Shown in pieces: positions 9,731 to 62,436 of a stretch of 64,000 bases of DNA. The notes under the pieces were generated by a model. The model made no database searches and was not told the DNA's origin. It worked only from the letters and a program-made list of their open reading frames with translations. Source of the DNA: Octopus vulgaris (taxonomy: Eukaryota). The stretch lies in assembly GCA_951406725.2 (NCBI GenBank), contig OX597842.1:10106001-10170000 (forward strand), written 5' to 3'. Within the stretch, counting starts at the first letter, position 1. Each line of letters starts with the position of its first letter. A program made the translations under genes and the position numbers.

Positions 9731-9761
<31 letters not shown>

Positions 9762-9790
9762 TGATAGATAGATTGATAGATAGATAGATT

Positions 9791-9829
<39 letters not shown>

Positions 9830-9840
9830 TGATAGATTTA
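9078..9840. repeat. (GATA)n/(GA)n/(GACA)n compound microsatellite
   Basis: Direct inspection. Confidence 0.95.
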
Positions 9841-11435: not shown

Positions 11436-11466
<31 letters not shown>

Positions 11467-13000: not shown

Positions 13001-13014
13001 AATGTGTAAGCTGC

Positions 13015-31230: not shown

Positions 31231-33734
31231 AACCGGTCTGCGCTGTACAAGATTGCCGAATTGCAATAAATTCTATCACCCCCACTTGGTCGTATCTGGA
31301 ATTTTTTTGGTCCATTACGCTATATACGATAGTCAGGACTGCACTAGTGATTGTGGTGCATTATTAAACTTGGGGAAGAAGGGGTTGAACTAGTCTGATT
31401 AATAGCCCTGGTGCCGTGACCAATAGCACATTGAAAATGTCTCCCTATTCCCATTAACTTCCTGGAAAAAGGATATTTTTTATTGAAATTTTCCGATAGT
31501 GTATGGTTAAGATTTTATCGGAATTCAGTATATAGAAAAGGGTGGTGGTGGAATAAGCGGCTATTTCACACATCTAGACATTGATGTGTTCTGATGTTGG
31601 TCATACAATTGTTTCCAATTAACTGTATATGGCTTTCGTCCTTTCTTTTCTGGAATTTACGGAAAATTTTCCAAGCATGCTGCCATTATTTGAAGAAGGC
31701 TTCATCAAACGTGAATTTGTTGATATTGTCTAAGGCTTTAGGCCTTAGAATATATCCATGTGATTCCTCACTATTTCTAGCATATTACTTCTGAATTTAT
31801 TTAACCCTATCAGACCCAAATATTTTATTTCGTTCAAGCCTATTACATTTGGCCTCTCGCACCTACCTTGCAATGCCTCTCTAATAATGAACGATTTCAT
31901 TTGATAGAGTAATCTGAATGCTAAAGGGTTTAAAGAAAGTTTTTCATGTCGCGTAAAACTTATTTGTGGAAAATTTCATTAAAATTTCCAATTTTCCGCC
32001 CTGCACATAGATTTTCATATCAAATTCCGACATCACAATCCACCCATTTAGAATATATTTGTAGAAAATTTTATTAAAAAAAACATTTTTCGTAGAGGGT
32101 GACAGTTGGGTGGGTGGGGACGCTTCTGTTATTGCTGGTATTTTGTTCTCAAGTTCTTGATAAAGCTGTTGTATTAAGGGATCTTGAGTTTTGTATGCAT
32201 TTGTCTTAAAACCTGTAGGGAGTAGTTAACACTGGTGTTAACTCGCATTGGGAGGATGTCTGGGAAATACTGATGAATAAGCAAATTATATGCATTTTTG
32301 TGTTAGATTCCCTATTTGTAAATAAATTATACATAGCTCTGAGACAGCTAGCTGGCAGAAATGCTTGGCTTTTCATTTGTTCTCATGTTCTGAGTTCAAA
32401 TTCTGAGGTCATTGTGATCAAAATAAGTACCAGTTGACCACTGGGGATCATTATAATTGAAATTGACTTATTGTTCACCTTAAAATTGCTGTGTGCCCAA
32501 AATTAAAATTATACAGAGCTCTTTAGATTTCTGCTGAGGTTAACTTTCCTTTCCTTAGCGGGTCAGTAAAATTTTATACCGGTCAGTTACTTGAGCCATT
32601 TAGTATTGACTACCCCCTCAAAAATGCTGGTTTTGTCTAAATTGGAAAATGAATATGCAGGTACAGCATTTCCCTAAAATAAAAAATCCTGTTGTCTGTT
32701 GGTAGGGTAGTAGGCAGTGTGAGAGAAAATGCTGCCTTAACTTCAACTTATTTCTGTTGAAATAGTTTTTTTTTTTTTATTACTTGAAATAAAGAATTTA
32801 AACTACTGATACTAGGTTCGTGTTTGGGACATAAATTAGTATGGTTTTTAGGAATTCTCTAAAATTGGACCACGGGCTTGTAGAGGGTTTGTATGGGGAT
32901 TTGGGTTTAAATTTCTTGAGGCCTTCTTTGAAGCATAATCCTTAAAATTTTTCTTTTTTAAAAGATTAATTGAATGTATAAGATTTGAGTTTTGGAAGGA
33001 AATGACTAGAATATATAGATCCCTACGAAATAAATCGGAAAAAGCTTTCATATTGTCCCTAAGGTTACGGTCAATGACACAGTAACCAGATTGGTAGCGA
33101 CTGGAGTGAATTTGATTATAGGATGAAAACTTAGGATAATTACACTGCTTACTCCTCCTTCTCCAGACTTTGTGCTATTGGTCCATGTTGTATATGTGCA
33201 GGGTTTTTCGCGTTAAATTAGAGTTTTCATAACAGAAAAATAAGACAATATTCCATTTGACAATAAAATTGTTGATTAGATTATGGCTGTGAGGTGAGTT
33301 CACTCAAAGTAGCTGCCCTCGGTTTTCAACACAGCCCCAAGATAGCTCTGAAATCTGGCACGTGTATTCCTCATTGTGTCTCTGGGAAGATCTTTGAACA
33401 CTCATGATCTGAGTTCCCCGCCATGCATAGCACTTTGGACACTTTTCTTGTGCTATTGCACTGGGGATTAAAACTTTTGAGTGGATTTTGTAGACTGAAA
33501 GAAGTTTGTGTTGCAGGGGTGTTTCTATGCTTTGTTTCCACTTTTTAAACATGGTTTAGCTCTTCAGTAAGCAGGGGTATTATTACCCCTACATGGAAGG
33601 GACTTGCAACATTAAGGGCAGCCATCCATGGAAAATAGTTTACACAAGATTCTGGTGTTTGTGCTTTGTAATTAAGGCTTTTCTTTTTACCCTGTGGTGA
33701 ATATTTCTTTTCCTTTCTTTTACAGTAAATAAAC

Positions 33735-36700
33735 ATGTCTACAGAAGATCTACAACAGAACATTGTCAATGATGATGACGACGAAGTTGAAGAAGTAACC
33801 CAGGGAGATATGGAAACTGGGACCTTGCCTCTTGATGATGAGGAAAAAGTGGAAGGTGATGTTCCTATGGAAGACAGCAATGCGGAAGGTAAGATAATTC
33901 TAGTCCTCCACCACCTTCAATACTTGCAATTTTTCTGTAGGGCCAACTGTGAATGATATAAATTATTGGGAAGTGATAACTTTGATTCTTTTAAGTTATC
34001 TCTTGGCCCCTATCCAGCTAAGGGGATAGTATTTAATACCTCCTTGTTTCACCCTTTTGTTAGCATGTTTCTATTGAAAACAATGTAGAATTTAGTAAAA
34101 TAACTTTGTCGTTATTAAGTTGGTGTTTGGAACAAATTTAGAAATTTTGATGGTTTTAATTTAGACCATAAACCCTTTTCTTACCATATTTCTGTTAAGT
34201 AACTACATTATCATTCCATGCTGGCTGGCATGGTAGGATGGTTTCATCAGAGCTGGGGAGGCACAGCAGACTCCAGTCTGATTTGGCTTGGTTTTGACAG
34301 CAGGGTGCTTTTCCTGGCACCGACACGTGTGCTTTACATCATCAGATGGACCAACTGCCTGCTTCAATGAAAATTTTGCAAGGCTTTAATTTAAAATTTT
34401 TATTAGGCCCATTTATGTTATAACTGGTTTTTTATTAAAGAATAAAGGCATTGAGAGTTATCTCTTGTTTGGAATTGTCTCCCTGTGAACAAGATTTGTC
34501 TTCCGGTTTTAATTTGTTTTCCTTTCCATTTTTTACAGAGAAGAAAGATGATGCTGAAAAGAAGGAAGAGGAGGATGACAATACATTTAATTTGAGTGAG
34601 TGTTGCAGAGTTTTTCCTTTTTCTTTTTTAAGCTCTATATGTTAGATGGGAGATGTTTGAGAACGTCGTGGTGGTCTGTTTAACCCCGTAGCATTTACAC
34701 TGGCCAGATCCAGACTCCCACTTCTGCTCTACAATATCATTCTGAAAATAAGCAGTCGCCTTGATGCTTCAAGATACCACCAGATGACACTTTTACTTGT
34801 TTGTCATTTGACTGTGGCCATGCTGAAGCACCATCTTTGGTCAAATGGATCAACCCCATGACTTATTCCTTGTAAACCTAGTACTTATTCTATTAGTCTC
34901 TTTTGCTGGATTGCTAAGTTACAATTGTCAAGTGATGGTTGGGAGGCAAATACATATATATATATATATATATATATGATAGGCTTCTTTCAGTTTCCAT
35001 CTGATTTTTTTTAATGTAAATAAATATTTCATTTGATAAGTTAATCTGAATGCTAGTGTTAGACTAATCCAGCAATGTCATTGAAAATGCAATCACATCA
35101 TTGAAATCTGAAAACTATGAGATAATGCATGATTAATTCTAATCAATGTGAATGAATATGCATTGCATCGGTCAGTAGTCTGAAGGCTGAAGCACCATTT
35201 TCATGTAAGTTGCACCAAAGCAAAATTTCAGAAGACTCGAGGGTGGTCAGATAAATATCTGTGAAAGGTATGTTGTTGTGGCAGGGTCACAGACATGCAG
35301 ACGTGTGTGGTATGTATGCACATACATACCACACAAAGAATCAAAGCCGAGGTCAACTTTGCCTTTCTTTCTTTCGGGGTCGATTAACCCTTTCGTTACT
35401 GTATTTATTTTGGGATGCTCTGTGTTTCTTTCAATTACTTTAAATATAACAAAGAATTTAGTAAAATAACTTAGTTATCATTAAGCTAGTGTTAGGAACG
35501 TAAATTATGACTAAGGCTTGGTGGAATATTTCAATTCAAAAATTATAAAAATAAGACTTTTTACCACAGAGCCAGGGCTGGGTTAGTAACAAAAGGGTTA
35601 AATAAGTACTAGTTATGCACTGGGGTCGATGTAATCGACTTAATCCGTGTGTTTGTCCCTTCTGTGTTTAGCCCCTTGTGGGTAGTAAAGAAATAGGTAT
35701 GTATGCACAATTGGCTTGTTTTCAGTTTTTGCCTACAAAATCCAGTCAAGGTTTAGGCCTCCCTGAGGCTATATTATAAGACTAGTTAAAAGGGCCATGC
35801 AGCAGGGCTGAACCCAAAGCTCTGTGATTAGGAAGCAAACTTCTTACATAGACCCACCCGCATCTAATGATTAAAGTTTTGTAATTTGTGTCACCCAAGG
35901 ATGGCCCTTACCTTGGTGTAGGAAGTTTTGTTGAGTGTTTCATTTGTTTCTGTGCTGTCAGTGAGAGGGGTGGGTGTGAATAAACCGTTTTCTTCTTGTG
36001 TCACTGCAGGACGTCCATACCCCAACTTGTTGACAATTCACAAGTTAAAGCTGGAGGACATCAAGGTTGCTGTGTCCGAGTTGTCTGACTACTGGGATGA
36101 CTCCTGTTTGACCATCAGATACATTAAAGAGAAGTCTGGTATTAGGAAAGGGTAAGTATCCCTATTTCTCTCCTCCCTCTAATATAGTGGTTCACAACCA
36201 CATTTTCCCCCGCCCTCTTGTTTTTTTGTTGTTTTTATGTCCTGGGGGTTGTTCTAGTGTATGTCAACATTAAAGAAAAATACTATGAAATATTAGGGGT
36301 TGTTAAAGTGGTAAGCTGATAGGATTGTTTGCATGCTGGGCAAAATGCTTCACCTGCATTTTTCTCTGGCTGTACATTCCGAGTTCAAATTTCACTGAGC
36401 TTGACATAGCCTTTCACCCTTCTGGGGTCAATAACATAGGTACCAGTTGCCTACTGAGGTCAATGTAATTTTGGCAGTGGCGGGGCTAGTCAGTTATGCT
36501 GTGTAGCCCACCTTCCCCAAAATTACAGGCTCTGTGCCTATAATAGAAAGGATTTTCAAATGGTTTTGAAAATTGTGTGTGGTTATTGTTGGGTATATTA
36601 GTGTCGATGTAATCAGCTTTGTCCTTTCTCAAAAATTGCAGACAGTGGCAAGCTGACAGAATTCTGCCTTGGTCAGCTTCACCTTTTTTAGCTTTTTGAG

Positions 36701-39700
36701 GGCCAGTGAAATAAGCACCAGTTAGGAGTTGGTGTTGAATGTAATCAGCTAGTACTCCTCCTTCCATAACCCTTTAACTTTTGAAACTGGCTAAATCCAG
36801 GTGAAATACCTCACCTGATCCAACCATTCCAACATATCTTACAATGTTATTCTATGAATTAAAAAAACTATTGCATGGTTAGTACAAAAGTGTGACAATG
36901 CCTGCTTCCCTTTCAAAGATTCCTTGTCTTGGAAAGTTATTTGGTGGCCCTGTCAGTGCTGGTGCCATGCAAAAAGCATCCGGTCCACACTGTAGAATGG
37001 TTATCCTTTGGAACAGCATCCAGCTGTAGAAACCATGCTAAAACTGACTTTGCCTGTGCTGGTGCCATGTAAAAAGCATTCACCCCACTCTGCAGGGTGG
37101 TTGCTGTTAGGAAGGCATCAACCATCAAGACCATGCCAAAACACAGAAGTATGGTGCAGGTTTTTGTGTGGTTATGCTATAGTTAACAATTTCAATGCAA
37201 AAGGGGTTTTTTTTATTTAAAAAAAAAACCCGGATTTTTTCGGTTTGAACGGCAGTTTTTTCTAGCGGTGTCATGAAATTGTCATCCACAATTATGACCC
37301 TAGTATCGATCTATTGCATTTCAATCTATTTTAGGGGTGGGGGGTAGGGTATCTTTTTTTCTTCACAAATGTAAATAAACCCAATCTGTTTCTTAAATGA
37401 TGGACATATTCATATGGCACAGAATGTTTTTTACCTCAGTGGACGTCAGTGATTAGTTGAAATTGCAGAAATTGAAGAAAAAACAACATATCTTACAACT
37501 ATCGAATTTTCTCAATAAAGCCAAGAGAAAAAGATGTTTTATAAACACATTCTACCAGTATACGAAGTTTAAAAGTGTTTAGTTACGTGGAAATTATTTG
37601 AAAAAAAAAAAACTGCCGGTCAAACCGAAAAGATTATTACCACTCCCCTGGTCTATTACAGGTTCATGCGGATGAAGTTTCCTTCTGAAGAAGCTGCCGA
37701 GGTTGTGTTTAACAAGCTGATGCCCATGGAAATCAATGGGAAGACCTTCGAATATGAACCTACTACTGAGGGTGAGTTATTTTTACAGTCCTGGTGGCGG
37801 TGGTGGTTTTGTCTCAACACATTTAGAATATCTAGATTCACCTAATTATTATTATAATAATAATAATAATATATTCCCTTCGCATATATCTGCCTCTCTG
37901 TCCTCTGTGCCACCCTTGGAATCGTGGTGCCGTGGCAATTCATGGCACCATGAGTTAAGGGCCTGGCTTATTTACTAGATTAATAACAATAATTGGTGGC
38001 CACCACTATTGATGAGAATTTCTGTATTTGACTCCATGCAAAAAAAAAAAAAAAAAAAGGCCCAATGAATGTTTGATCATTTTTTGGCCCTTTCTTCTTC
38101 AAACAACCTTGCTGAATCGGAAATTTTTTTCTTGCAGGTAACGATGGCAAAGATAAAGATGGTAAAGGTATGGATTTGCCTCTTGATAAGCAAATACATT
38201 TATCCCTACTGCTATTAATTAGATGATGTAGTGGCCTTCATCTGTCAAGGCTGTTTAAGATGCATTTATTGAAAATTTTTTTAAGAAAAATAATTGGTTT
38301 AGTACCAATTGTCAATTTGAACCCATGTATAATATATATATTTGTACATATGTCTATATATATATATATATATATATTTCTATATCTATATAAGCACATG
38401 TATCTAGTTAAATTAAGTGCTGCTAGTTACTTGCCCTATGTAATTTCTGTTGAGTTTAACGTTTCTCATGCTTAAAATGCAACCTTGATGTCTATAGAAA
38501 TGTTGTGTTACGAGACATCTTTTGTAATTTTTTTCACTTTTATATTTTCAGTACGACAGCTTATTTTTGTCTTGCAATGGAGTTACCTCATTGCCAAATT
38601 ATGTTTGTATGTGGCGCGGTGCTAGCTACGGCAAACCGCCGTAGACAAGGCTATTGTCTACGGCTTGTGAGAGTAGCAGTACTTTTTGTCATGTACCAAA
38701 GAGAAAAAGGAAAAACAAAAAAAAAAAAGACAAACAAACCCCCTGCAACAAAGGGAGTCTGTGTGGCCTCCCTCTGCCTATCTCTCTTGAAACAAATGTA
38801 CAGCTCTTAGTGGTGGCTCTCGGTATTTTATTGTTTAATCAATGATAATAATAATACTAGTTGTGGTTAGGATGGTTTACTGACCTATACTAGTTCAACT
38901 AGTGTTGGTGGTAAATTCCTTAAGACCTCACAACCCGTGTCCCTTCCCTACTACCAGCCAGTCCTTTCCTGCAATGATCTTAGCTATGGCAAGAATGTTA
39001 TTGGCATGAATAATAAGAGCCGAGTGTTGTTTGTTTTTATTATTGTTGGGGATAAGATTTAAGTTCCAGTTGTGGGTAGGGCAGGTTTTGTTTCGCTATT
39101 TTGTATATTTTTAAGTGTGTAGTGCTCTGCAAAGGAGAAGCAATGTAAATTTGTTGTCCCTTGTCGTCCTGATGTTGTCCCCTCTATTTAGGAGTTTGTA
39201 TCGTCTTTAATTCCCTTCACCCTGTAAGGCATTAAGTACTATCTAGGGATCTGTTTTTGATCTTTGGCAGTAAATTACTATTATAATTGCCCTCAGGTGT
39301 TGCTGCTTGCCAGGGCTTATTCTCCACGCGTTTGCTCTGCCGTGCTTCCATCTTCCTTGGAGTCCAGTTTTAGATGTCCTGGTTCTTGTTTCAAGCCACA
39401 TGGTTGGTTGTTTCATATTGGAACATCCATCCAGTTTTCACTACATTACCTACCTCTTAAGCAATGTTTGGTGACTGCTCCCTTACCAGGACAACTTCCA
39501 CATATTTTGGTTAGCGAGCTAGAAAATAGGGATGGCAGAACTGTTGGCTCTGTCCCCTACTCACATCCTCCTTCCTCATGCACGCTAAGGACCAGCTGTA
39601 GCTATGTTAGCCAGTCATAGAGATACATAAATCACAGCTCTGTTCTGAATTTGCTTGAATCCTCATCCCTGTCAGAATGAGTCCACTGAAAAGTTTTCGG

Positions 39701-42700
39701 CCCCATCCAACAATAACTTCAACCGATGCCATTTTTATTATTGCTTCTCTCTTGTAGCATCACACACCATATTTTACTTTTTTCTTTTCCTTCCCATGTC
39801 AGTATTGTTCTTTAAATCTATTATCTAATACAATTTCTATTCCTAGCCATATTGGTCCCATAATGTATTGTCTCTTTGCAATGTTGAAAGTTATTTTAAA
39901 GATTTGTGTAGACAGCCAGTTATTACAAAACTTCAGTTAATGTATATTTAAGATGTGATATTCCAAATTCAAGTAGCCCCTATTTTCAAATTTGATTTGG
40001 CCCAATACTTTAGAATCCTTCAAAAAATAGGGTGGGAAGTTTTTTGTAGAGACATGCATTATTTCAGGCAAGTATTTTCTGGGGGACACTTTCATGTTAA
40101 ATTAGTCTAATGTATGTATATTATATATAAACTGCTTCTATATATATCTATCCTTTTCCTGTATCTCTCTCTCTCTGTCCCTGTCCCCGAAATTCTTCAG
40201 GCAGTTTTTTCGATAGGCTTTGACAGGACCACTAAGGAGGGTCTGTCCATATTGCTCGCCTTTTTAGCTATGTGGAAAAAGAAAGAAAAAAAAGCAACAG
40301 AACTGGTTCCCTGAATTTTTCCGCTTCTTCAGTAAATTCTGTTTCTGAGAGGAGAGGAAAATGGCAGGTGCTTTGTCTTCTTTGATAATCCAATCAATCT
40401 CTTGTCTGATATTGTTAGCTCTGAAGTATATATATTTTGCCATGGGGGAGTTTTCTCTTCTACTTGTTGAGGAAAATTTTTGTACTACTTTGCACTGTCA
40501 AAGATTGGAATGGCTTAAAGGGCCGGCTTGATCCCTTCTCTTGCTTGTGAGATTTTTTAGTAAAGTAAATTTCCTCACCGGCTCCTGTGGGTGAATTTGC
40601 AGAAGCTATTTTCCTTTAGTGCGTGTATATATTTTTATATATACATGCTCACATATGTGTATGTATATTTATATATAGATTTATTTTGGGGTCTGTTGTT
40701 TGAAACACTCAGGCTTACAACTTGCTATATAAATAGGTGGGTTATTCATAATAACCCTTTATTTTCCTTTACAAGGGGGTGGTCATCATTTTTGAGCCGG
40801 TCACTCAAAAGGCTCGAGATTCCAAGTACGGGAAGTCTATCTTGTCCTTGCCTGCCTATTCCAATTTTTGCTGATTGATACCGGGGGGAGGGTGTTTTTT
40901 TCCTCTGGTATCTCTGTGTGTATAATGAATTAAATACATTAAATATATATAATTTTAAATTTTTTTTTTTTTAAATCTAATTTAAAAAAAAAAAGTAAAA
41001 TAATTTCATTGAATTCCTTCTGTCTCTTGACAGGAATTAGAAAGTTTGTGGCTGATGCCGACACTGTTGTTTTGAACAGTTTAATAAATTTGTTAGCATT
41101 TCGTTTGTTGAGTGTCTGTCGACAGGTGTTGATGTAGCCCTGAGCTTCAATATACTCCTGTTCGCACACGCACACACGCAAAAAAAAAAAATGATAATTA
41201 AAAATTAATGTATTAATTGCATCATCATTAAAATTGTTGATGACGATCTGTCCCCAATACGTGAGCACCTGACAATTTCAGGGAACAAGAAAGACTATTC
41301 CCTCTATGTCAACAACATTCCCCAAGGAGTCACAGTGAAGGAGGTGCAGGCGTTGTTCCCGCAAGCCCGGAATGTGGTGATCCCACTTAATGAGGAAGAC
41401 CAGAATCAGGGGTAATTTCTCAAACTTGCGCATATTTATACATTTTTAATAAATTTGTTTGATGGTGCTGGTGGTGGCTGATGCAGTCCCCCAATAACTG
41501 CATCACCAAACCAACCCCTCTTATCCTATCTATCTCTCTCTCTATATAAATATATATAAAATAAATATGTTTATACATATTGTTGTTCATCTGCATCGTC
41601 TCTGTGACGCGCAGTTAGTACATACTCAAATGCTTCTATTATGGTTTACTGTAGGCATACATATATATCTATCTATCTATCTATCTAGGAAGTATTAAGC
41701 ATTATTTTTTTTTGTATCATCACTATTATACACTTGTGAGACTGCTGTTTGCTGTCACTCAGCTGGGTGTGGCATTCCTGCAGCTGACAGGGTTTAACCA
41801 GCTTCTATAATAGCAATAGTCATACTAGTAATAATATTAGTAATAACAATACCAACCATTGTAGTTGTCACTTATGTAATATAGTTTACTCAAACTTCCT
41901 GGTTTTTTTTTTTCTTATTGTATTTTACAATAGTGCACACCTTGTAGAACAGACAGCAGCTTAGATTTCTAAAATAACTGCACCTTTTTTTTAAATTTTT
42001 TATTCTTATTTTTCTTTACCTGATATTAAGGAATCTTTCTGTTAATTGTTAGCTCGTTAATTAACTTCTGATTAACAATAGACATCTGGTAAAGTTTAAT
42101 TTATCCTCTCTGCTTTCTGTAGAACATGCAGCATTTTGGCATAGTTAATATGACCTAGTGTAAATAATTAAGACTAGTAAAATAGTGTTAATTACCTGGT
42201 AAGATAATAATAAATAATTAAGCTGTTGTATTATTATTATCATCATCATCAGAGGCATCTTTTGTGAATTTTGAGTTTTTTTTTCCTTTTAATTTGGTCA
42301 TTTTTTGGAATGTTAAAAACGGTAACTATAGCAAAATTAACTGAAAATATTTCAGTATAACAAATAGTAACCTAATTTTTAAAAAAAAATTGAAGAAAAA
42401 AAAAAATTTGTAGCTTGTAGTTTTTTCAACATTGTAACCACTTATTTCACTCCCCCCTCTGTATCCCATATTTCTATTATATCTATAAATTTGTCCATAT
42501 ACATAGAAATATATATATCAATAATTAATTAATCAAACTGGTTTCCATTGATTCTATTGACGAATTGACAGCTTATCTTAACGTATAAATTCCGATGCTT
42601 GGTGACGAAGCATTTCAGTCTAGAATTTCCCAAACCTTGGTGGTGGCAGTGTGAAGGAGGGGGGTGTAATCGGTGGTTATCTATGTCTTAGGTGATGTTT

Positions 42701-45700
42701 TTTTGTCTTTTTTTTTTTTTTATTATATATATATAAATAATAGCGTGGCTTGCTGTCCGACTATTGCCCTGTTAGCTGTGTCTCTTAGTCTCAACATCGT
42801 CCCCACCCTGTGTCTTTTCTACAGATACGCCCTTGTGGAGTGCCATTCTCTCCAGGAGGCTGAGACCATGCTTGCCGAGAGCAAGGAGCTGAAGCTTAAG
42901 GAGAACGTCTTGACATGTGACCTGATTTCTCACACTTCTAAGGATGATGGTAAGTCTTGTTGTGGAAACGATTGTTTTTGTTCTTTGGGCCGTTTTGTTA
43001 ATGAATGAATAGAGCTATCCCCCGTGAGGGATTGCTGGAAGATAATGTTCTGACGCGCTCATCATGCTTCGCGCCATGGTTAGCATTGGACTTTGACCCC
43101 CATCTGGCCCTTGCTTCCTTTCTGTCCCCTCCCTCGTGGCAATCGTACATTAGAAGGTGGTGTGCTTCTAATTACTAACCTGCAGCAGGCCATGCGACCG
43201 TGTAGTTTGGCACTATAGCATTAGGTGCGAAGGGCGGGGTGTGTCTGTGTGTGTGAGGGCATTAGGGACACCGCCACCTAACCCGCTTGCAACACAGGTT
43301 CAGAGTTTTGCGGTTTTACCTCAGGTGCTTGACTGACCTTGCTTCGATCTCACCAAGCATGGGGGCCTAGGTATCACTTCTGGTTAGTTACTTTACTTGG
43401 CCAACAATCCAGTTTCATACAATAGCCTTGAAATTGTGATCAACGTGTTGTGCACATGTCCTTCACTGTCCTGTTTAGGGGCAGGGAGGACTGGGAGTTC
43501 TGCTTGTGGGCTGCTCCACTGAAGACACTCCAGATGCATGTCCCTTTTAGCTCTTTAGCATTTTTACCAACCAGATCCTACCCCTCGTACCCGTCTGATA
43601 ATGGCATTCTAATAACTTTCATAATCTTGAAGCTATGAGATAATGCATGATTTATTCAAAGCAATGGAATAAATACACATTACATTTGCCAGGGCAATCT
43701 TAATGCTAGAGTTGATCCTTTGACCCCTTTTTTTTTGTGGTGGGGTGGGGTATCACATCTTGTTTGTGCTGCTCTGTTTGGGAAGTGGAACTGGTTGTTT
43801 AACCTCAGGTCTACCTCGTCTTCTGTGACTGTCTTACTCTGTCAGTATCGGTATATCTACCTAGGACTGTTGAACCCTACGTGCTTGTGTTCAGCATTGT
43901 TGGCAGGCCAGGGAGTGTGTTTGTAGCTGCTTGCGTTAAGGCTAGGGGAGCAGGGTTCTCATTGGGTCATTTGGGATGCCGTTGATGCATCAAAGACTTG
44001 TCCGCCAAGCGGGGGTTTGATGCGGAGTCTGCAGGCAGGGTTTCGGGGGTGTTTTTCAGAAAATCGAAGGCAGCCGTTTTGTTTTTTGTTTTCTCTTCCG
44101 TTTAGATGATAAAAAATCGAAGAAGCATCAGAACAATCAACAAAATAAAAAGGGACGCTTTTCAAACAGTCAGAATCGTCGTAACCACCAGATGAATAAA
44201 AAAGGTGAGAGCAAATTATTTATTTTACACCTGTTTGTTTTTGGTGTTTTGAATGGAATTGACCGTAATAGGGCCCAGGCATTGCTGTGCGGTTAAGTTT
44301 ATTTTCCGGTCCTACTACCTGGCACCTTCTTCAGCCTGTGGTCTAACTAGGGCTTTGTGGCTGGATCTGGTGGGCAGCAACAGCTGATGGTTTAGTGTGT
44401 TGTGGGTGTCTGTGTCTACTTGGCTTGATATTGTGTGATAGTTGTTGAGAAATGCTACTTTGCTTGGAGACTAGTAAGGGTTAGTAACAGGAAGGGCTTC
44501 TGACTTAGAAAACCTTCCTCAATAATAAATCATAAAAGCATGGAAGTGGGCATCGAAAATGTTGGCGTTTCAATAAAAGCAGCTTGATTTTGTAAATGGA
44601 GAATTTTGAAGGACTTAGCTGTTTCATTATCAAATCTGGTTTTGAGGCAGTGAACTAGCTGATGCAGAGAAAAGTGAATATTTTACGTCACTTTCCAGTG
44701 ACCAGATTGTGAATTTTGTGCTTGAGAGAATTAGTTTTTGTAGTTATTTAAAAGTGGGAATATATATTAAATATTAATCCCTGAGAAAACGGGCTTTTGT
44801 TTTTTTGCCCATTTTGAGAGATTCATTTAAATTTCTCCTGTAGTTTTTAGCCCTTTAGCATTCAAACCATTCACATCAGACCCAAATATTTTGTTTGTAT
44901 TCAAACAGGCCGGATCCAGCCTTGTTACCCTTAACCTCTGTTATTTTAAAAATAAAACTCACATCTCCTAGGTCTTGAAGCTGCAGGACAATGCTTGATT
45001 AAGAACAATATGAATAAATGCATTCAACAGGATCTGAATGGGTTAAATATTTACAAACCCATTCTTGAGACTGGTTTGGCGGGTTCCTATAAAATTGTGG
45101 CGGGAAGTTTTTTTTTGTTTGTTTTTTTTCACTAAACTCCTTACCATTTAAATCTGCCATATCCGGGTAAGATATTTGATATTCAAACTGATCTGATTGG
45201 TCCTCTGACACTCACCAAACAATATCATTCTAAAAGTTTGCAATCACGTCATGGAAACTTCTCGGCCATCATATTCGTTGTCATGTGACATCTGCTTTCT
45301 ATGCTGGCATGGGTTGGCCTGTTTAACAGGAGCCAGCCAGGTAGAAGACAACACTAAGCTACTGTCTGTTTTGGTATGGTTTTTATGGCTGGATGCCCTT
45401 CCTAACACCAACAACCCTGCAGTGTCGACTGGCGGCTTTTTCCATTGAATACAATTGTCTTTGTTTTAATGACTTTATAAAGAAATGGGGAGTTTATTAA
45501 AAGCAATTCGTTATTAAACTCGTTTGAAGGAATCCTTTTCTTCGTAATGCTATTAGCAGGAGGAGTCTAAATTTATTTTTTGGTTTTTTTATTAACCAGG
45601 CAAGAGACCACAACAGATGCAGCAAATGCAACAACGCAAACAGAGATGGTCTCCTGAGAGACGACAACAAGGCAGGAAAGTAAGTAGGAACCCTTTCATT

Positions 45701-47323
45701 ACTGTATTTATTTTGAGATGCTCTGTGTTTCTTTAAATATAAGTAATTTTAATTACTTTAAATATAGCAAAGAATTTAGAAAAATAACTTAGTTATCATT
45801 CAGCTAGTGTTAGGAACATAAATTTTGACTAAGGTTTAATGGGAGATTTTAATTCAGAACTTATGAAAACAAGACGTTTGTACTCAGAGCCGGTTTCAGC
45901 CGGGTTGGTAACGAAACGGTTAAGACACTATCAATTCAATAATAAAACAAACTCAGGAAACACAGCAATTATCCAGTGAAATAAACTTCCACAGACAATC
46001 TAGGTAACCAACGCATTCCACACAACAAAAGACTGCACCACACCTCAAGAGGAAGGAAAAACAAATAGAACGTGATCCAATACCAGGAAGAGTTTGTACA
46101 CACCCCAGCAACATGGAGGTGTAGCAATTGATGCTGTAGAAGTTTACTTCAAACTGCTAAATGTTGGACAATTATGTAATAGTAGTTGTAGTACCTGGTG
46201 GTGTTGGATGTATGTGTATATCTTGGTGTGTGTCGTGTTGGACAAGTAGTGAAGCGACATCTTTTAACGGTATCTTTGCATTTCTTTTTTACAGCCTTTG
46301 CAGTTTATGCAGAAAGGAAGAATGGACGGTGGTAGGCGTCAGCTCATGGATGGTGGTGGCCAGTGGTGAGTTGTCTTTGCTCGTTTGTTTGTGTGTGAGG
46401 GAAGGGTGGGTTTCTGAATTCTTTCAGTCCTGAATGACAATGTTTTCTTCACATACCTTGCTGACAAACAGTTGAGGTTTGGTGTCATGAAATTCATTCA
46501 ACCATGGTAGTAGTCTACCTGAATGGTTTTGACTTGGACAAGTATGGAAGAATGGATGTTAAATTATGTGTTTGTGTGTGAATTTTCTGTTTCTGCTTTT
46601 CGTTAATGGTTAATTAGACGTTCTTCATTAACACTTACTGTGCTAAAGATGTCTGCGTGTATTTGTCACATGGACAAGATGGCATCTTAGTCAAGTTTTG
46701 GTATTTCCTGGATTATTAGTAATCCACCTTGTACCAAACTAGGTCATTAACCATTGCTAAGCTGCTGATGAGAATATTTGTTAATCATGGGTATAGCTTC
46801 GTAAATTGTGTGAAGTGCAAGTCATTTTTTAAAGTCTGTGTTTGTCTCATGTTGAAAGACATACACAAACTCCCAGGGAAAAAATGTTACAGCCTGTTTC
46901 GTGTCTATTGACATACAGAAGCATACTCAGCCAGAAAATAGTCACTTTTGAAGTCTGTATTGTGTTGATAGATTTGTACTTAAGAATTTTGGTGTTTGTA
47001 ATCAAGACTTGTTAGTCACTATCTATATATCTTGGTGCACTCCCTCTCTCAACAACAGCAGTTTGTCTCCAAACAGGTGTTGTTACAGACATCAGCTTCT
47101 ATAAGATCTCATTCAAAAGTCAGTAAGGGTGATTAATATTTAACAGCTGTGGTATTGTAACTGTACTAAGGTAGCATAATAATTTGCCCTATAAATTGGG
47201 GCTAGAATGAATGGTTTTACGAGAATTTGACTCTCTATTTTATTTATTAGAAATTAATTTTTATAGTGAAAAGGCATTATTTAAAGGGACGAAAAGACCC
47301 TATTGAGCTTTTATTATATAGAT

Positions 47324-47363
<40 letters not shown>

Positions 47364-50300
47364 GGGGGGGGGCTAGGGTATAACAGTAGTTGGCAGGGGG
47401 TAAGGGTTAAGCTGGCCAAAGGCAAAAGTCTTTGACGACTCTGCCCCTGTGTGGCACATCTCGTTGCTACTCCTACTTCTCTCTCTCCTGTTCTGTCACA
47501 TAACATAATTAATCTTTGTGTTTCTTTGTTTTCCTCCAGGAACCAAGGCGGTCAGAACGTCACTGCTGCTCTCTCACAGACCAGTGAATTACTTAAAGGA
47601 CTGACCAGTTTGCTTGGGTTAGTATTTTCATCATTTCTATTTTTTCTCTTTCATAATCCTTACTGTTGTTTAATCCATTCGTTGGCATATTTCTGTTGAA
47701 CGACACCTTCATTTCAATTAATTCTGAAAATAATAATTTACTAAAATATCTTGGTCATTACTAGGCTAGTAATTTTAGAAAAAAAAAATTTAACATGTAA
47801 TTTTGATTTGGGTCACAGTGGCAGGGGCAGTCTTGGTGTCAAAATGCTTACGCCATGACTTGATACCTTGTACCATCTATTTGTTTTTTCTCGGTGTTTA
47901 GACTGTTACATACTACCATACTAGGATGCCTTTTTTTCTTTTATCATCTTTCCTCTTGTGTTTAAACTCATTACATCACCGTAACTTAACCCTTTAGCAT
48001 TTAAACCGGCCATATCCAGCCAAAAGTATTCTGCCTGTTTTATGTTCAAACTGGCCATATCTGGTCTCTCACACCAATCCTACAATATCATCTTAAAAAA
48101 TTAACAGCTACCTCATCAAAATCTCATAGCTACAAGATAATGCCTGATTAGTTCAAAACAAGGTAGATGAAGAAGCATTAATTTTGGCAGAATAATATGA
48201 ACACTAAAGGGTTAATACCTTGTCTGTTCTCCCACCCTTATTATAATCACTAATTTTGTGTCTTAGCTCGTTACATGGCTATAATCATATGCCTTGTCTG
48301 TTTTGCTCATCTCCCCCATTTTTCTTTCCTTGTGATTAGAATCATTACATTGCCCTGTCACCCCCCATGTTGTACTAAAGTAATCACTGCTTTTGTGTTT
48401 AGGCTCGGCATTGTTACACATGCCATAGCTGGATACCTTGTCTGTTTTGTCCTTCCTTTTTATGCTTTGTGATCCCTGCTCTTTTTGATCGTTACATGAC
48501 AAGCCCTAATCTAATGCCTTTTCCATTTTCCCCATTTCTCGTTGCAGGCAACAGCTGCTGAGTCCCAACCAGATGGGCGGCCAAGGCGACGGCCAGTACG
48601 GCAACCAGTCATGGGGACAAGGGATGGACCAGGGAGGTAACTACGGTGGATTTCAGTCAGGCGGAGGTGGTGGTGGCGGCGGCGGCGGTGGCCGAGGGTT
48701 CGGCAACGACAGCATGAATTACGGTAACTATGATTTGAACTCAGTGCTGGAGGTCTCCACCTCCTCGCCCTCAGCCTCAGCCTCCAGATACTCGGGTGAT
48801 GAATATACAACTCGCAACCGACCCTATGAACAACACGGTGGCCGTTTCGGTGGGAGTAAGAGATCTCAACGCACTTTCGACTATAACTCATCGGGTATGC
48901 TTACGTGTTTAAAATTGAGTGCCGTGTTGAATCCTCTATCGGGGCTGCTGTAAGGTTTTAGTCGAACCAGTATCAATCCCAGCGCTTATTTTTTTCCTTA
49001 AGCCTGGTACCTATTCTGTCGGTCTCTTTGCTGAACCCTCTTAATTCATGGGAATGTAAACACCCCAACACCGGTTGTCAAGCAGTAGTGGGGGACGGAC
49101 ACATTCAGTATGCATGCATACACACACACACATAATGGGCTCCTTTCAGTTTCCCAAGGCTTTCGTTGGTGCAAGTCTATAACAGAACACGCTGGCCCAT
49201 GGTGTCACACGGTGAGACTGAACCTGGAACCATGTGGTTACGAAGCAAACCTCTAAGCACACTGGGCCAAACCTGTGGGCTGTCAATACAGTGGAGCTGA
49301 TGACACTGGTACTGGGTCAGTGGAGTCTGTCTTTAAGAGGCGTCCCTTCTGTCATTGGGGATTGCTATGTTTAATTCCAAATGTACAGCCACTAAAACTT
49401 TGGAATTAAGGGTCCGTCTTGAGACACTGGGGTTTGCTAACATAGCTTACTTCTCTCTTGGGTGGGTTGGAAGGGTTTGTCTGTCCTTTAGTCTAATATT
49501 TTGGCTCCCAAATGATATATCCTTGTTAGGGGTCACTGACATTTGGCTTGACCAACCCAGATTGAAATCTGTTACTGTTATATTGCTGCAATGCTGATGT
49601 TTGATTGTGGACATGCCCAATCAGAGCTGATCTGTGGTTAAATGATAACCACTCGGGCAGTTCATCTACACCCAACCATGTGGAATTTTCAAATTATCCC
49701 TTGAATGGGTTGTCATCGACTGTCCTCTTCTGTTATCCTGAGATGCTGGCATTTTGCTTTTGAAGCAGGAAACAAATTTGGTTGCTATTCCTATTGAGTA
49801 GAACGACTGGGTTTTGGGTCTCTTGTGATCCCTGTATCTGGTTGATCGCTGTAGTTCTTCCCCAGATTCAGGACACGCAGGGGGAAGCTGTTGAATATTG
49901 TTTCACCAATTTACAGCTTCCTCTGCTCAGGATTGTGTTCACGTCCACAAGCATTGTATCTAGTCAGTCCTGTGGCTGGCCTGGGGACGAAATAGCCTCG
50001 TAGAATCCTTCCGAATGTGGCTCCTCTGTTATTGGCAATAAAGGAGCTGACTTGGCCAGCTTTGTTGTGAACCAGTTAGCATTTGGTCCTCTGGATGGTT
50101 TGATATGACTAGCAGTGCACAAGCTACAGTGATTTTGAGGGGACAGGTCGATTACCTGTACTCCTTTCACCAATGCTTGCTCAATAGTCATTTTATCAAT
50201 CCCAAAAGGATGAAGGGCAAAATTGTCTGGCAAGCTAGTGATTCTTGCCAGCTCTCCACCTTACTAATAATGGTTTCAGATTTTGAATTTGGTCCAGAAA

Positions 50301-52150
50301 TTTCAGGGGAAGGAATAACTTAATATTGGAGCCCAGTGTTCCACTGGTATTATTCCATCAACCCCTGTACGGATGACGGTTGAGGTCAACCTCTGGAATT
50401 TGAGCTCAGGATGAAATGCCATTGAGCATTTTGTCTGGCAAGCTAATGGTCCTTGCCGGTTCTCCAGTTTAAATAATAATATCACCTTGTTGGGGGCCAG
50501 GCATTGCTGTGCTGCTGGTTGCTTTGTCACCGGTGCATGGTTACCTGCTTGGGATTTTGGGTTAGCGGGGCAGGATGAGGCTGGGGGTTTGTTTCCTCTT
50601 CTAATGTGTGTGGTTTCCCCCCAACCCCCTCCTGGACTAGATCTCAATCTGGTGGGGGGAGGAGGAATGCGGGGGGAAGCTTGCTCTTTTGACAACTGTT
50701 CCTCTACCTCTTCCTTTTTTTTTTTTCCTTTTGTTTTGTGTATGTATAAATATGTTGATGTTATATAACCTGTATTATCTATATATATCTTGTATTTTGT
50801 TGCAATGATCTAATTTAAGATATTTGACGTGTAGTACCTGTCGAAAATGATGGGGTTTCATTGTATGACAAATTCAGCTGGTGTTAATGGTGAGGTACAG
50901 TTAGTGATAATAATAGTGACATCTTACTAATTGTGATTTAGTGGTGCTCTAATCACTGTTTTTGTTAAACTGTTATGAGGACAGACAATTTGAAGTAGGA
51001 TGGCAGACACTTATGCATGCACACACATGCAGGGCTTCCACACAGTTTCCCATCTACTGCATTCATTCACGTTGTCATCAGGTCTTGTGTTGTCGTCATG
51101 ACATCCATACTGGTGTGTACGAGTTGGAATGTTTGGCAGAGCTGAAGTCTAGTGTCTTGTTCACATCTGATTTGGCATAGCTTCTACAGCTCGCTGGCTC
51201 TTACAAAAAGGGCACTGGGGGGGCTTTAACAAGGTCACTTTGAGGCGTGCAGCTGAGTAAAGTTAGGTGTCTTTGTTCTCAGATGAAAGAGGTTATCCTC
51301 TTATGTAATCAAGTGATTGTGGTCTACATATCTCATAAGGCATATGCCTACGCTTGTACTTTGAGTGGGCTTATATATTAGAACTGGTTTATATTAAAGA
51401 ATAGACATTGGGAGTTGGAGGTTGGTGTAGTGTTATCAACTCTAGCTACCCCTTGTCTGCGACTCCAACTCCACAGCCCTGGGAGAAATGGAGGAATATA
51501 TATTCGGGCATGTCCTGCAGTTCTTGGGTTGCTGTCATTACTGTTTCGTGGCGTAAAAAAAAATAGAATAGCCATTCCCATTTAATCGACTCCCTCCCCC
51601 AATTATGCTTACTGGTGGGGAAAATCAAAGGAGAGACCAATGTGGATCTATCTTAATGGCAATACGCATAACTTGGCAACACACATGTGTGTGTATGTGT
51701 ATATATATGCTTCTTAAAATGTGTGTGTGGGGCTTAGTGTTTAGGGTGTTGCACTTGGTCTGTAGCAATGGTGTTTTTTTTTTTATATATTCTTTGAGTG
51801 GGTGGTTTGTTCTTGATTGAGCAAAGCCTTTCTCCCCCCCCCCCCCATTGCTCTGCGATCACTTTTGACACCTGGTCTGTGGTGCACCGTGCATCTGTTT
51901 AGGCTGTCATTTCGCATGACCTAACGTGGGGCAGGGGCATCACTTGCAATGGCATACCAACGATTCTGCCGGTTTGCCACCTTTGTTGTTGTTGTTGTTG
52001 TTGTTATTAGTATGTGTTTTGAAAATTAATTTTTACCTGGCAGTTTAATTTATTTTTCTTTCTTTTTCCTTTACCTTTTCCGTTTCAGGCAACTATGGTG
52101 GTGGCGGCGGCGGTGGTGGATGGGGTAGCTCATACCGTGGCTACAACTGA
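33735..52150 (+). CDS. Two-RRM RNA-binding protein with acidic N-terminus and Gly/Tyr-rich C-terminal low-complexity tail (hnRNP/nucleolin-like), 437 or 494 aa
   Basis: Coding exons with GT-AG junctions and consistent phases: 33735-33888, 34539-34595, 36010-36151, 37662-37771, 38138-38167, 41282-41411, 42825-42949, 44106-44204, 45600-45679, 46295-46365, 47540-47617, 48548-48723 (or -48894), 52089-52150 (TGA). RRM1 RNP1-like KGFMRMKF; RRM2 RNP2 LYVNNI and RNP1 QGYALVEC; tail GNYGGGGGGGGWGSSYRGYN*. Confidence 0.88.
37236..37632. mobile_element. MITE with TIRs, ~30 nt upstream of a splice acceptor
   Basis: TTTTCGGTTTGAACGGCAGTTTTT ... AAAAACTGCCGGTCAAACCGAAAA. Confidence 0.7.
47141..47315 (+). 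pseudogene. NUMT: mitochondrial 16S (rrnL) fragment in an intron
   Basis: Conserved mt-16S motifs AAGGTAGCATAATAATTTG, GAATGAATGG and GACGAAAAGACCCTATTGAGCTT in the correct order. Confidence 0.88.
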
Positions 52151-52519
52151 GTGTGTAAAAAGTGTGTGTGAGGGGGGGTTGTATCTTGTCTGTCAAAAAA
52201 AAAAAAAAACACCAGTACGCCAGTGTGGTCCATGGTCGTCAGCACCAAGTCTTCAGAAGTTTAGCAAAGAAAGAAAGAAAAAAAAAAACAAAAAACAAAC
52301 TTGGTTGCTGCTTTTTTTATTTTTTTTTTTTTCCAAATTTTTTAACAATTTCCAGCTCATTTCTTTTAAAAGAAAAAAAAAACTTTTTTGTTTTCATCTA
52401 GTTCCTGTCTCTTTCTCTCTCATCATCTATCACACTCTCTTTCTCTCTCTCTTTCTCCATAGTCCTCCTCCTCCTACCTTTTTGAAACACTGGTCACTTA
52501 TTCATTAAAGGAAAAAAAA

Positions 52520-58221: not shown

Positions 58222-59016
58222 ATTGGGTTGTCCGGAAATTTCATGCCGATTTATAGTCGCTTACCTTTCGACTTATTTTAGAACATGGTTGAGTCCATGA
58301 AATAGGATTTGACCACACGTCCATTTAGAGCACAGTTTAAGCTATCTTTTCGTGGAAGAAAGTTTATGTTCCTATAACCTGTGTTAATTCTGTAACCCTT
58401 TAAAATGGAAGATAAGAAAGTTCATTTTTGGCACTTGATGCTTTGGGAACCAGACAAAAATTGCTGCAGCTCGGCCAATTTATAATAGCTTACTTTTCAG
58501 CTTATTTTAGTACATGGTTGAGTCCATAAAATAGGATTTGACCACACCTCCATTTAGAGCACAGTTTAAGCTATCTTTTCATGGAAGAAGGTTTATGTTC
58601 CTATAACCTGTGTTAATTGTGTAACCCTTTAAAATGGAATATAAGAAAGTTCATTTCCGGCACTTGATGCTTTGGGAACCAGACAAAAATTGCTGCAGCT
58701 CGGCTGGGATGTGTTACCCCACCCTCCATATTCACCAGATATTGCTCCTTCGGATTTCCACTTATTCAGGTCTCTGCAGAATAGTCTTAATGGTAAAAAT
58801 TTCAATTCCTTGGATGATGTAAAAAGATACCTTGATGAATTCTTTGCCATGAAACCACCTCAATTCAGGGAAGAGGGTAATTTCAAGTTAAAGGAAAGAT
58901 GGAGACACATTGTGGTACAACATGGTTCATATTTGGTTGATTAAAATGTAATGGCAAGTATTTATTGACCCTTTTCTTTCCTTTAAAAATCCGCACGAAC
59001 TTTCCAGACAACCCAA
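58222..59016 (+). mobile_element. Internally deleted mariner element with an internal ~225-bp duplication
   Basis: TIR TTGGGTTGTCCGGAAA / TTTCCAGACAACCCAA; transposase C-terminus LPHPPYSPDIAPSDFHLF within 58672-58944. Confidence 0.9.
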
Positions 59017-60699: not shown

Positions 60700-62150
60700 G
60701 GCGGCGGTGGTGGTGGTGGTGCTAGTGGTATTGTTGCTGGTTATAATAATGTTGGTCACTGGTAGTGGTTGTGGTGGTGGTGGTGGTGGGCGAGAGTGCT
60801 GGTGATGGTGGTCGCTGTGTGTGGTAGTGGAGGTAATGGTTATTGCAGTACTGGTTGGTGGCGGTGGTGGTTCTGGAGATGCAGGAGGTGGTGGTGGTGG
60901 TAGTTGTGGTGGTGTGATGAGGGTGGTTGAGCATGCTGGAGGTGGTGGTGGTGGTAGCAGTGGTGATGCTGGTGGTAGTTATAGTGGTGTGATGAAGGTG
61001 GTGGTGGAAGTTGTGATGGAGGTGGTGTGGGTGGTTGAGGAGATGGTGGTGGTGGTAGTTGTAGTGGTGTGGGTGGTGATGAGGATGCTGGAGGTGGTGG
61101 TGGTGGAAGCTGTGATGGAGATGGTGGTGGTGTGGGTGGTAGTTGTAGTGGTGGTATGGTGGTGGTGGTGGTGTAGTGGTGATGAGGATGCTGGTGGTAG
61201 TTATAGTGGTGTGATGAGGATGCTGGAGGTGGTGGTGGGTGGTTGAGAAGGTGGTGGTGGAAGTTGTGATGGAGATGCTGGTGGTGGTGGTGGAGATGCT
61301 GGTAGTGGAGTGGTGTGGGTGGTTGAGGAGGTGATGTGGAAGCTGGAGGTGGTAGTTGTAGTGGTGTTGGTTGTTGTGATGATGGTGGTGGTGTTCGTGG
61401 TTGATAATGATAGGGGTGGTTCAGCTCATGGTAGAGATGGTGGTGGTAGTGGTGACAGCAATGTTAGTAGTAGTAGTAGTAACAGCAGCAGTAGTTAGAG
61501 GAATGGTGGTATTAAAGCTGGTTGTAGTAGTAGTAGTAGTGTTTGTGATGGTTGCAGTTGTAGAGGCGATGGTATTGGTGTGGTGGTGGTGGGGTTACCT
61601 TATTAGTTTGATGTGGAGGAAGGGGCAGTGCCCACGACTTGTAGCAGCCCCCTTAAAGACACCACCACCCCACTAAACTGCCACTCCACCCCCCATATCC
61701 AGCTCCGAAGGCCCATGGTGAATGTTCTCCTCAACACACAGGACATGGGACAGGAGTGGGGCTAGCTGCAGAGGGCGGGGGGCGACGAGGGGGAGGAGGT
61801 GGAAGAAGGAAGGAAAATGGGTTTAGTAAGGGTGGAAGGAATAAGACGTGGAGCCCTTAAAAGGGTGCCGGACTCAGTATGGATGGCGAGAGAAGTGGGA
61901 TGAAGAGGGAAGGGAAGAGGAAGGAGAATTGGAAGAAAGGAGGACGGAGAGGTAGGGAAGACAAAGATGAAGCGGGGAGGGAGGAGGATGAAGAGGAAGA
62001 GAGGACAATGAAGCAGGGAGGGAGGAGGATGAAGAGGAAGAGAGGACAATGAAGCGGGGAGGGAGGAGGATGAAGAAGAGAGGGAAGAGGCTGGAGAGGA
62101 AGGGAAGAGAAGAGAATGAAGAGGATGAGAGATAAATAAGTTGAGAACAA
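60700..62150. repeat. (GGT)n-like and purine-rich low-complexity sequence
   Basis: Direct inspection. Confidence 0.85.
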
Positions 62151-62436
62151 TGTCTAAGTGGAGGTGGTCATGAGATCAGCAAGAGACCACCATAGAGAGA
62201 GAAGACAAAAAGGATGAAAGACAGACTGTAAAATGTCTGAGGGGTGGGTGGGGGGAGACAGAGATTTTGGGGGTGTGGTGTAATACATTGATTTCAAATT
62301 TTGGAATTCCTAATTGGTGGTGGACTTTGAACTTGCAGCTATACAGTTTAAACAACCTATGTGTTTGAAATATAATCTTGGTCTGACATTTTGTTAGCCG
62401 GAGTCATTACATGGAGTGCTTACCGAGGTATATACT

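What the first reader, a model, noticed from the sequence alone, without database searches (positions are those of the whole stretch)
38168..41281. TE-free intron between the two RRMs has three strong PTC-creating acceptors while the productive acceptor is weak
Acceptors at 38551, 40200 and 41033 have good pyrimidine tracts and, in the incoming phase 1, hit stops after about 24, 7 and 34 codons. The in-frame acceptor at 41281 (CAATACGTGAGCACCTGACAATTTCAG) has almost no tract. This 3.1-kb intron lacks the SINEs and MITEs found in most neighbouring introns. The architecture fits an on/off splicing switch such as hnRNP/SR poison exons or Sxl/tra-type alternative 3' sites.
Basis: partly seen in the sequence, partly recalled or inferred. 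Interest (0 to 1): 0.72.

Follow-up and report, generated by a model that had tools for sequence, protein, structure and literature searches.

The report
Conserved weak acceptor, retained octopus intron
In an octopus gene for an RNA-binding protein, an unusually weak splice acceptor and the exon behind it are nearly identical in an ancient sister gene, and the intron in front of it turns up unspliced in RNA, which likely marks a regulated intron-retention switch of a kind known from mammalian RNA-binding proteins such as FUS.

Summary
The intron (38168-41281) is real, repeat-free, and lies in the linker before RRM2 of the Octopus vulgaris 'nucleolin-like' gene (CAI9743381). Stops after the three upstream AGs are as stated but uninformative (646 of 764 intronic AGs do the same). 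38551 and 41033 are the strongest cryptic AGs of the gene; 40200 is ordinary; none has a good donor; no joint to them is among the 15 of 114 joints listed, and contigs run through them. The real signal is the weak acceptor. It scores lowest of 24 and matches an ancient paralog at 19/20 bases (other exons 4-9/20). The 130-nt exon behind it keeps 32/40 identical codons (others 95/213), and its peptide is identical in 8 of 8 proteins of the clade. The canonical joint is in 4 of 4 RNA runs. The intron is also assembled unspliced: whole in one run, in long pieces in two. Against a related octopus about 2.5 kb differs by at most 0.36%, a 647-nt middle by about 5%. Best reading: regulated intron retention at a conserved weak acceptor (FUS/CLK1 type). 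Autoregulation, nuclear detention and NMD are inferred. A new member of a known kind.

The parts
33726..52151 (+). Coding part of the O. vulgaris nucleolin-like gene (13 exons, ATG 33735; acidic N-terminus, degenerate RRM1, RRM2, basic/Q-rich and Gly-rich tail); a non-coding exon ends near 13187
37662..37771 (+). Exon ending RRM1; its donor is used with or without the micro-exon
38138..38167 (+). 30-nt in-frame micro-exon in the RRM linker, skipped in annotated isoforms (P0010, P0012, P0017); a similar unannotated one lies in the paralog
38168..41281 (+). The 3114-nt repeat-free intron; spliced in 4 of 4 RNA runs and also assembled unspliced; read-through gives a stop after 19 codons
38532..38551 (+). 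Strong cryptic acceptor (10.3 bits); no use seen; possible decoy
38607..38696 (+). Long single-copy hairpin just behind the first cryptic acceptor (-43.8 kcal/mol, window z -6.5); no Rfam match; role unknown
39053..39699 (+). Fast-changing middle of the intron: 32 of the 34 listed (41 total) differences against organism C
40181..40200 (+). Middling cryptic acceptor (6.1 bits), not above background
41014..41033 (+). Strongest cryptic acceptor of the gene (11.4 bits), 248 nt upstream of the true one; no use seen
41213..41281 (+). Conserved tract-poor acceptor block shared with the paralog (the one intron match clearly above shuffles); holds GTRAGC (41261-41266), an AG at 41264-41265 and CTGAC at 41269-41273
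41270..41311 (+). Predicted 11-bp hairpin over CTGAC and the acceptor AG, possible in both paralogs; no covariation; weak support
41282..41411 (+). 130-nt exon, first half of RRM2, conserved at codon level; skipping it would shift the frame (stop at codon 187)
41412..41435 (+). Conserved donor flank of the next intron (14/18 identical to the paralog at +7..+24)
41412..42824 (+). Next intron, also repeat-free and hairpin-rich; possibly retained too (indirect hint only)

Best explanation
The weak acceptor at 41281, the 130-nt exon behind it and the start of the next intron form a splicing element conserved in both octopus paralogs, and it likely slows splicing so that part of the transcripts keep the 3.1-kb intron and make no protein. 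Shown: weak site, paralog-level conservation, repeat-free and slow-changing intron, spliced and unspliced forms both present in RNA. Inferred: that retention is regulated rather than merely slow; that retained RNA is held in the nucleus or destroyed by NMD (a stop falls 19 codons into the intron); that the protein or its paralog binds the element and closes a feedback loop (about 0.4); that the two strong upstream AGs act as decoys that help retention (about 0.3).
For: Flank identity to the paralog is 19/20 upstream and 14/18 downstream, against 4-9/20 and 3-10/18 for the other 10 exons. Identical codons are 32/40 against 95/213, p 5e-5; a control exon with 24/26 identical residues keeps only 8/24. 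The 17-mer acceptor occurs exactly at 2 places in 2.8 Gb, the two paralogs. Both paralog clades hold octopods and a cuttlefish (100/99); the exon peptide is identical in 8 of 8 A-clade proteins, with 39/44 columns invariant over 15 proteins against 61/125 in the other RRM exons. RNA contigs: X17 one piece 38139-41309; X11 38395-40929; X2 three pieces from 38154 to 40172; X1 38139-38342. Their depths are 44-455, against 2.8-18 for the listed single-copy pieces of other introns and 2503-13538 for the spliced joint (the tool warns that contig depth cannot rank parts of a gene). Against organism C: at most 9 differences in 2524 nt outside the middle, 32 in 647 nt inside (p 2e-15; scan test 0 of 200000). 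Repeat-free block 37772-42824, P about 0.001 at the gene's insertion density. Hairpin windows with z <= -3: 12/94 in that block against 8/227 elsewhere. Analogy: FUS introns 6/7 (PMC7337901, passages).
Against: All RNA evidence is contigs from runs only guessed to be RNA (their spliced GT..AG joints argue for RNA). Depth is not a splicing rate; unspliced depth is only about 1-4% of the joint. The longest piece has 29 and 28 exon letters at its ends, under the tool's 31-letter bridging rule. Three of 4 runs have holes at the 3' end of the intron. A weak acceptor alone would give slow splicing without regulation. A-runs at 38717, 40984 and 41180 could capture pre-mRNA (but the A19 at 38040 lies in a nearly uncovered intron). 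No neutral intron of organism C was covered as baseline. Folding of the element is unremarkable (z -0.58 and -0.18). A dead retrocopy is also unexpectedly close to the gene in this same block (11/264 against 82/556), which splicing control cannot explain. No binding, fractionation or NMD data. Retention in the paralog was not tested.
Confidence: 0.6

Rival explanations
1. The regulated event is skipping of the 130-nt exon (38167 or 37771 joined to 42825), which shifts the frame and would trigger NMD; the unspliced intron is a stalled intermediate. Not exclusive of the best explanation.
For: Conservation is centred on the exon and both flanks. Skipping gives a stop at codon 187, and at 193 in the paralog. 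X1 and X17 contigs end 29 nt into the next exon, as if a second path entered there. CLK1 shows both retention of introns 3/4 and exon 4 skipping (10.1101/681056, passages).
Against: The skip joint lay outside the stretch laid, so it was not tested. The 29-nt end fits a retained next intron or a variant base equally well. None of the full-length proteins retrieved lacks the exon.
Confidence: 0.15
2. One reading: the upstream AGs (above all 41033, 248 nt upstream) are used as tra-type alternative 3' sites or poison-exon starts, and are the switch.
For: 38551 and 41033 outscore all 23 cryptic AGs at or above 6.1 in the other introns (best 9.5); AG excess p 0.007. They lie in the slow-changing parts. 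NMD would hide such joints.
Against: No such joint among the 15 of 114 listed; contigs unbroken there; in X17 the bin 40964-41226 has depth 57, like other intron bins at 44-58. No good donors. Not shared with the paralog. PTCs are chance. Only 4 runs, tissues and sexes unknown.
Confidence: 0.1
3. The block is conserved as an ADAR substrate (recoding in the exon, or editing of the acceptor A, which would itself cause retention).
For: Edited sites shared among coleoids have conserved flanks (as discussed in PMC6881472, passages). A hairpin can cover the AG in both paralogs.
Against: No long duplex. The X11 exon contig has 0 other letters. The JGI and Logan proteins carry the same exon residues as the genome-derived ones, apart from one V>T in P0026 that is not an A-to-G change. 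PMC9699675 reports that editing very rarely alters splice sites (passages).
Confidence: 0.07
4. No splicing control: protein constraint, a DNA element or gene conversion keeps the sequence, and the intron is simply slow to splice.
For: The dead retrocopy is also conserved over this block. Unspliced depth is low.
Against: Paralog-specific residues at exon positions 4, 20 and 28 are shared by octopods and cuttlefish within each clade, so no conversion across them since that split. Conservation stops about 70 nt before and about 25 nt after the exon and includes the splice signals.
Confidence: 0.08

Closest known systems
FUS introns 6/7 retention (PMC7337901, passages seen)
   Same: RNA-binding-protein gene; conserved introns around a frame-shifting coding exon; retention seen rather than skipping; premature stops in the intron.
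   Different: FUS has iCLIP, fractionation and dose data; here none. Here the deepest conservation is a tract-poor acceptor plus exon shared by two paralogs; the host is a coleoid nucleolin-like protein.
CLK1 introns 3/4 and exon 4 (10.1101/681056, passages seen)
   Same: A coding exon whose flanking introns are retained and whose skipping would give an NMD isoform.
   Different: Kinase, stress-released; retention of the second intron and skipping are untested here.
Decoy-exon retention in SF3B1, OGT, ARGLU1 (PMC6097662, passages seen)
   Same: Intron over 1 kb with strong internal acceptors that are rarely or never joined.
   Different: Decoys there are conserved cassettes with both splice sites; here the strong AGs lack good donors and are absent from the paralog.
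ENOX1/Enox pseudo-5' splice site and essential exon (PMC13100119, abstract and section 6 seen)
   Same: Ultraconserved essential coding exon with a conserved 5'-site-like motif nearby.
   Different: There the motif lies downstream of the exon; here GTRAGC sits 21 nt before the acceptor and scores only 2.0-3.6 bits.
Nucleolin (9cb5_A)
   Same: Best solved-structure match (E 1.5e-11), to the RRM2-RRM3 pair; acidic N-terminus; Gly-rich tail.
   Different: Two RRMs, about 25% identity, no RGG triplet in P0014; the name is an automatic label. Only one 50%-identity cluster matches at E<1e-30; a bivalve protein is 26% identical.

Membership tests
Regulated intron retention in RBP genes (FUS type) | Host encodes an RNA-binding protein | tested here: met
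   Pfam RRM_1; nucleolin profile match
Regulated intron retention in RBP genes (FUS type) | Intron present unspliced in RNA beside the spliced form | tested here: met
   Contigs in 4 of 4 runs, whole intron in 1, long pieces in 2, 175 intron bases in 1
Regulated intron retention in RBP genes (FUS type) | Retention selective for this intron | tested here: inconclusive
   Contig depth 44-455 against 2.8-18 for listed pieces of other introns, but contig depth cannot rank parts of a gene
Regulated intron retention in RBP genes (FUS type) | Unusual sequence conservation | tested here: met
Regulated intron retention in RBP genes (FUS type) | Nuclear detention or NMD; response to the protein's own dose | not testable with these tools
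   needs fractionation, NMD block, knock-down, CLIP
SR/hnRNP poison cassette exon | Cassette with acceptor and donor inside the intron | tested here: not met
   Best donors within 330 nt of 38551 and 41033 score 4.6 and 2.1; 40200 has one at 6.2; real donors 7.0-13.5
SR/hnRNP poison cassette exon | Inclusion joints in RNA | tested here: inconclusive
   None among 15 of 114 joints shown; contigs drop rare forms; no NMD-blocked run
tra-type alternative 3' splice site | Strong upstream PTC site is the default (feature recalled) | tested here: not met
   The weak downstream site carries the joint in 4 of 4 runs
tra-type alternative 3' splice site | Sex- or tissue-specific switch | not testable with these tools
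   runs carry no tissue or sex label
Decoy-exon retention (SF3B1 type) | Conserved internal splice-site pairs that promote retention | tested here: inconclusive
   Strong AGs lie in slow-changing DNA but lack donors and paralog counterparts
U12-type intron | GTATCCTT donor and TCCTTAAC branch site (consensus recalled) | tested here: not met
   Donors read GTATGG and GTGAGT; the branch-like CACCTGAC differs
snoRNA host or box C/D K-turn switch (NOP56 type, recalled) | Rfam snoRNA or conserved C and D boxes | tested here: not met
   No Rfam family at gathering score; TGATGA at 41238-41243 is absent from the paralog
Nucleolin | Four RRMs and a C-terminal RGG domain (features recalled; visible in P0029) | tested here: not met
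   Two RRMs, no RGG triplet in P0014

The most novel reading that the evidence does not exclude
The last 22 bases of the intron are a compact, coleoid-wide switch of their own. A tract-poor acceptor overlaps a 5'-site-like motif, an out-of-frame proximal AG and a branch-like CTGAC only 10 nt from the AG, and folds back onto its exon. Both nucleolin-like paralogs read it to set each other's dose, possibly with ADAR editing of the acceptor A, while the retrocopy's preserved block acts as a decoy RNA.
Probability: 0.1. Interest if true: 0.72.

Novelty: new member of a known kind. Interest (0 to 1): 0.46.

Why it matters
Conserved unproductive splicing is well described for mammalian RNA-binding proteins. 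The paper searches listed in the full report showed no case for cephalopods or for this gene family. This locus supplies a short, paralog-shared element, older than the octopus-cuttlefish split, that can be tested directly in a minigene. It would show that coleoids dose-control a lineage-specific RRM protein pair by intron retention, and that acceptor weakness itself is under long-term selection.

Tried and rejected
No listed run is on record as RNA; holes in contig cover were not used as evidence. Rfam: nothing at gathering score. Metagenome scan with alignment A1: 364 pattern matches, 0 relatives, so no squid or cuttlefish DNA was obtained. Whole-element folding z -0.58 and -0.18. A helix pairing the intron end with the next intron, and one pairing -55..-45 with the exon, had probability about 0 in single-sequence ensembles (at most 0.19). 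The acceptor is no more buried than several others; the hairpin over the AG has 11 invariant pairs and no covariation, probability 0.67-0.91 in this gene, 0.15-0.89 in the paralog. K-turn, U12 and snoRNA ideas failed. No paralog match inside the intron above shuffles (best 33 against shuffled maximum 44). The 38-nt match on C6 looks like chance. A repeated GTCCCC(C)AAT motif is not significant. Word-share arithmetic hints that runs hold part of the next intron (X11 0.74 against a bound of 0.66; X17 0.63 against 0.57), but background pre-mRNA or repeats could give that. miRNA check of the 38607-38696 hairpin: nothing in the supplements of PMC9699675 that were held, but the data zip was cut to 100 characters, and two identifiers searched were guesses. 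ESM Atlas: generic RRM clusters below 0.9. AlphaFold: mean pLDDT 41.8, only RRM2 modelled. Earlier scan findings: none. One search was a script error, repeated.
Full report
Gene. Thirteen exons between 33726 and 52151 translate exactly to P0016, which the collection names CAI9743381.1 'nucleolin isoform X1' of Octopus vulgaris. The window is G000:C29 of a 2.8-Gb genome. A non-coding exon ends near 13187. Pfam finds one RRM (172-237 of P0014). The best solved-structure match of the family profile is nucleolin RRM2-3 (E 1.5e-11), well ahead of Sxl (8e-5). AlphaFold models only RRM2. Among 1.84 billion representatives one cluster matches at E<1e-30; the named full-length members are all coleoids. 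The intron lies in the linker, after a 30-nt alternatively included micro-exon.

Observation. Coordinates, phase and stop distances are right. With a matrix trained on the 22 other acceptors of the gene and its paralog, the productive acceptor scores 2.4 and its paralog 2.8, against 2.9-13.4 in-sample. 38551 scores 10.3, 41033 11.4 and 40200 6.1. Twelve AGs reach 6.1 against 5.2 expected, and 646 of 764 intronic AGs meet a stop within 34 codons. No donor above 4.6 follows 38551 or 41033. The intron is repeat-free, as are both neighbours (37772-42824), while 8 of 12 introns hold repeats.

RNA. I laid 4 of the 23 listed runs on 33600-41470. All are contigs, guessed to be RNA. The joint 38167->41282 stands in 4 of 4 (depth 13538, 11472, 2503, 4970). 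No joint to a cryptic AG is among the 15 shown; 99 are hidden. The intron is assembled unspliced: X17 38139-41309 in one piece (depth 44), X11 38395-40929 (58), X2 38154-38342, 38395-38715 and 38717-40172 (223, 139, 455), X1 38139-38342 (370). Listed single-copy pieces of other introns have depth 2.8-18. The tool warns that such depths cannot rank parts of a gene and that holes prove nothing, so selectivity is suggested, not shown. The X17 piece, from another species label (organism C), has 41 differences and 22 gaps. Of the 34 listed differences 32 fall in 39053-39699 (4.9%), leaving at most 9 in the other 2524 nt (0.36%; p 2e-15). Listed coding pieces differ at 3 of 444. No neutral intron of that species was covered.

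Paralog. A second intron-bearing gene lies at C5:21388183-21403386. Both clades contain octopods and Sepia (branch 100/99), so the duplication predates that split. The only intronic match clearly above shuffled scores is the end of this intron (score 57 against shuffled maximum 44). Ungapped flank identity is 19/20 before and 14/18 after the 130-nt exon, against 4-9/20 and 3-10/18 for 10 other exons. Identical codons are 32/40 against 95/213 (p 5e-5). The 17-mer acceptor has exactly two perfect copies in the genome. The exon peptide is identical in 8 of 8 A-clade proteins, and three residues that separate the clades are shared across octopods and cuttlefish, which argues against recent conversion between the paralogs. 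The block holds GTRAGC (weak as a donor, 2.0 and 3.6 bits), an AG 16 nt upstream whose use would give a stop within the exon in both genes, and CTGAC at -13..-9. An 11-bp hairpin over the AG is possible in both, without covariation and without unusual stability.

Mechanism. Shown: weak, conserved acceptor; codon-level conserved exon; repeat-free, slow-changing intron; both RNA forms. Inferred: regulated retention that removes transcripts from translation (stop 19 codons into the intron), feedback by the protein or its paralog, decoy action of the two strong AGs. Rivals are exon skipping with NMD, tra-type or poison use of the AGs, an editing substrate, and constraint unrelated to splicing. Against my reading: unspliced depth is only about 1-4% of the joint; three runs have holes at the intron's 3' end; and a dead retrocopy (3 stops, 56 non-synonymous against 27 synonymous codons) differs at only 11/264 bases over exons 37662-41411 but 82/556 elsewhere. 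cDNA conversion or a splicing-independent constraint could explain that; it is unexplained.

Literature. Seen: PMC7337901 (FUS; passages), PMC6097662 (decoys; passages), 10.1101/681056 (CLK1; passages), PMC13100119 (abstract and section 6), PMC6881472 (passages), PMC9699675 (passages and the supplements held; data zip cut). Listings only. The searches 'nucleolin+octopus+splicing' (5 papers), 'cephalopod+poison exon' (4), 'octopus+conserved non-coding+intron+RNA-binding' (2) and (20 of 181 listed) showed nothing on this gene by title or abstract start. The library lacks most subscription papers, and the unseen octopus annotation and miRNA files may bear on isoforms and on the 38607-38696 hairpin. 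Features of tra, U12 introns, NOP56 and nucleolin architecture are recalled.

Verdict. A real, old regulatory element that works most like FUS or CLK1 intron retention. New member of a known kind; interest 0.46.

Noticed in passing
G000:C5:100522020-100522860 (L018): Processed dead copy of this gene including the micro-exon; only 4% diverged over exons 37662-41411 but 15% elsewhere, with the low-divergence block ending at the end of the 130-nt exon. Unexplained.
   Followed up: partly
L017:2042-2071 (paralog): 30-nt in-frame micro-exon with AG/GT ends at the same place as 38138-38167, absent from the annotated octopus paralog proteins; the decapod paralog proteins carry a similar insert.
   Followed up: partly
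window 38607-38696: About 34-bp irregular hairpin with an 11-bp perfect top stem, single copy; could be an editing substrate or small-RNA precursor.
   Followed up: partly
window 48548-48894: Annotated isoforms differ by 57 residues at the end of this exon (437 against 494 aa), implying an internal alternative donor; the long form also occurs in unnamed P0024.
   Followed up: no
window 13187-33725: First intron of about 20.5 kb after a non-coding exon.
   Followed up: partly
window 2448-5634: Two adjacent, opposite-strand copies of a reverse-transcriptase-like ORF with a GIY-YIG-like C-terminus (Penelope-like by recalled motifs), one with a 624-aa open frame, the other in pieces.
   Followed up: no
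window 9400-13100 and 60700-62200: Long purine-rich and GGT-type simple repeats causing strong strand skew.
   Followed up: no
window 58629-58944: Mariner/Tc1-like transposase fragment by recalled motif.
   Followed up: no
window 47180-47320: AT-rich stretch that reads like a mitochondrial 16S rRNA fragment (recalled motif; possible NUMT) inside intron 46366-47539; Rfam gave no match there.
   Followed up: no
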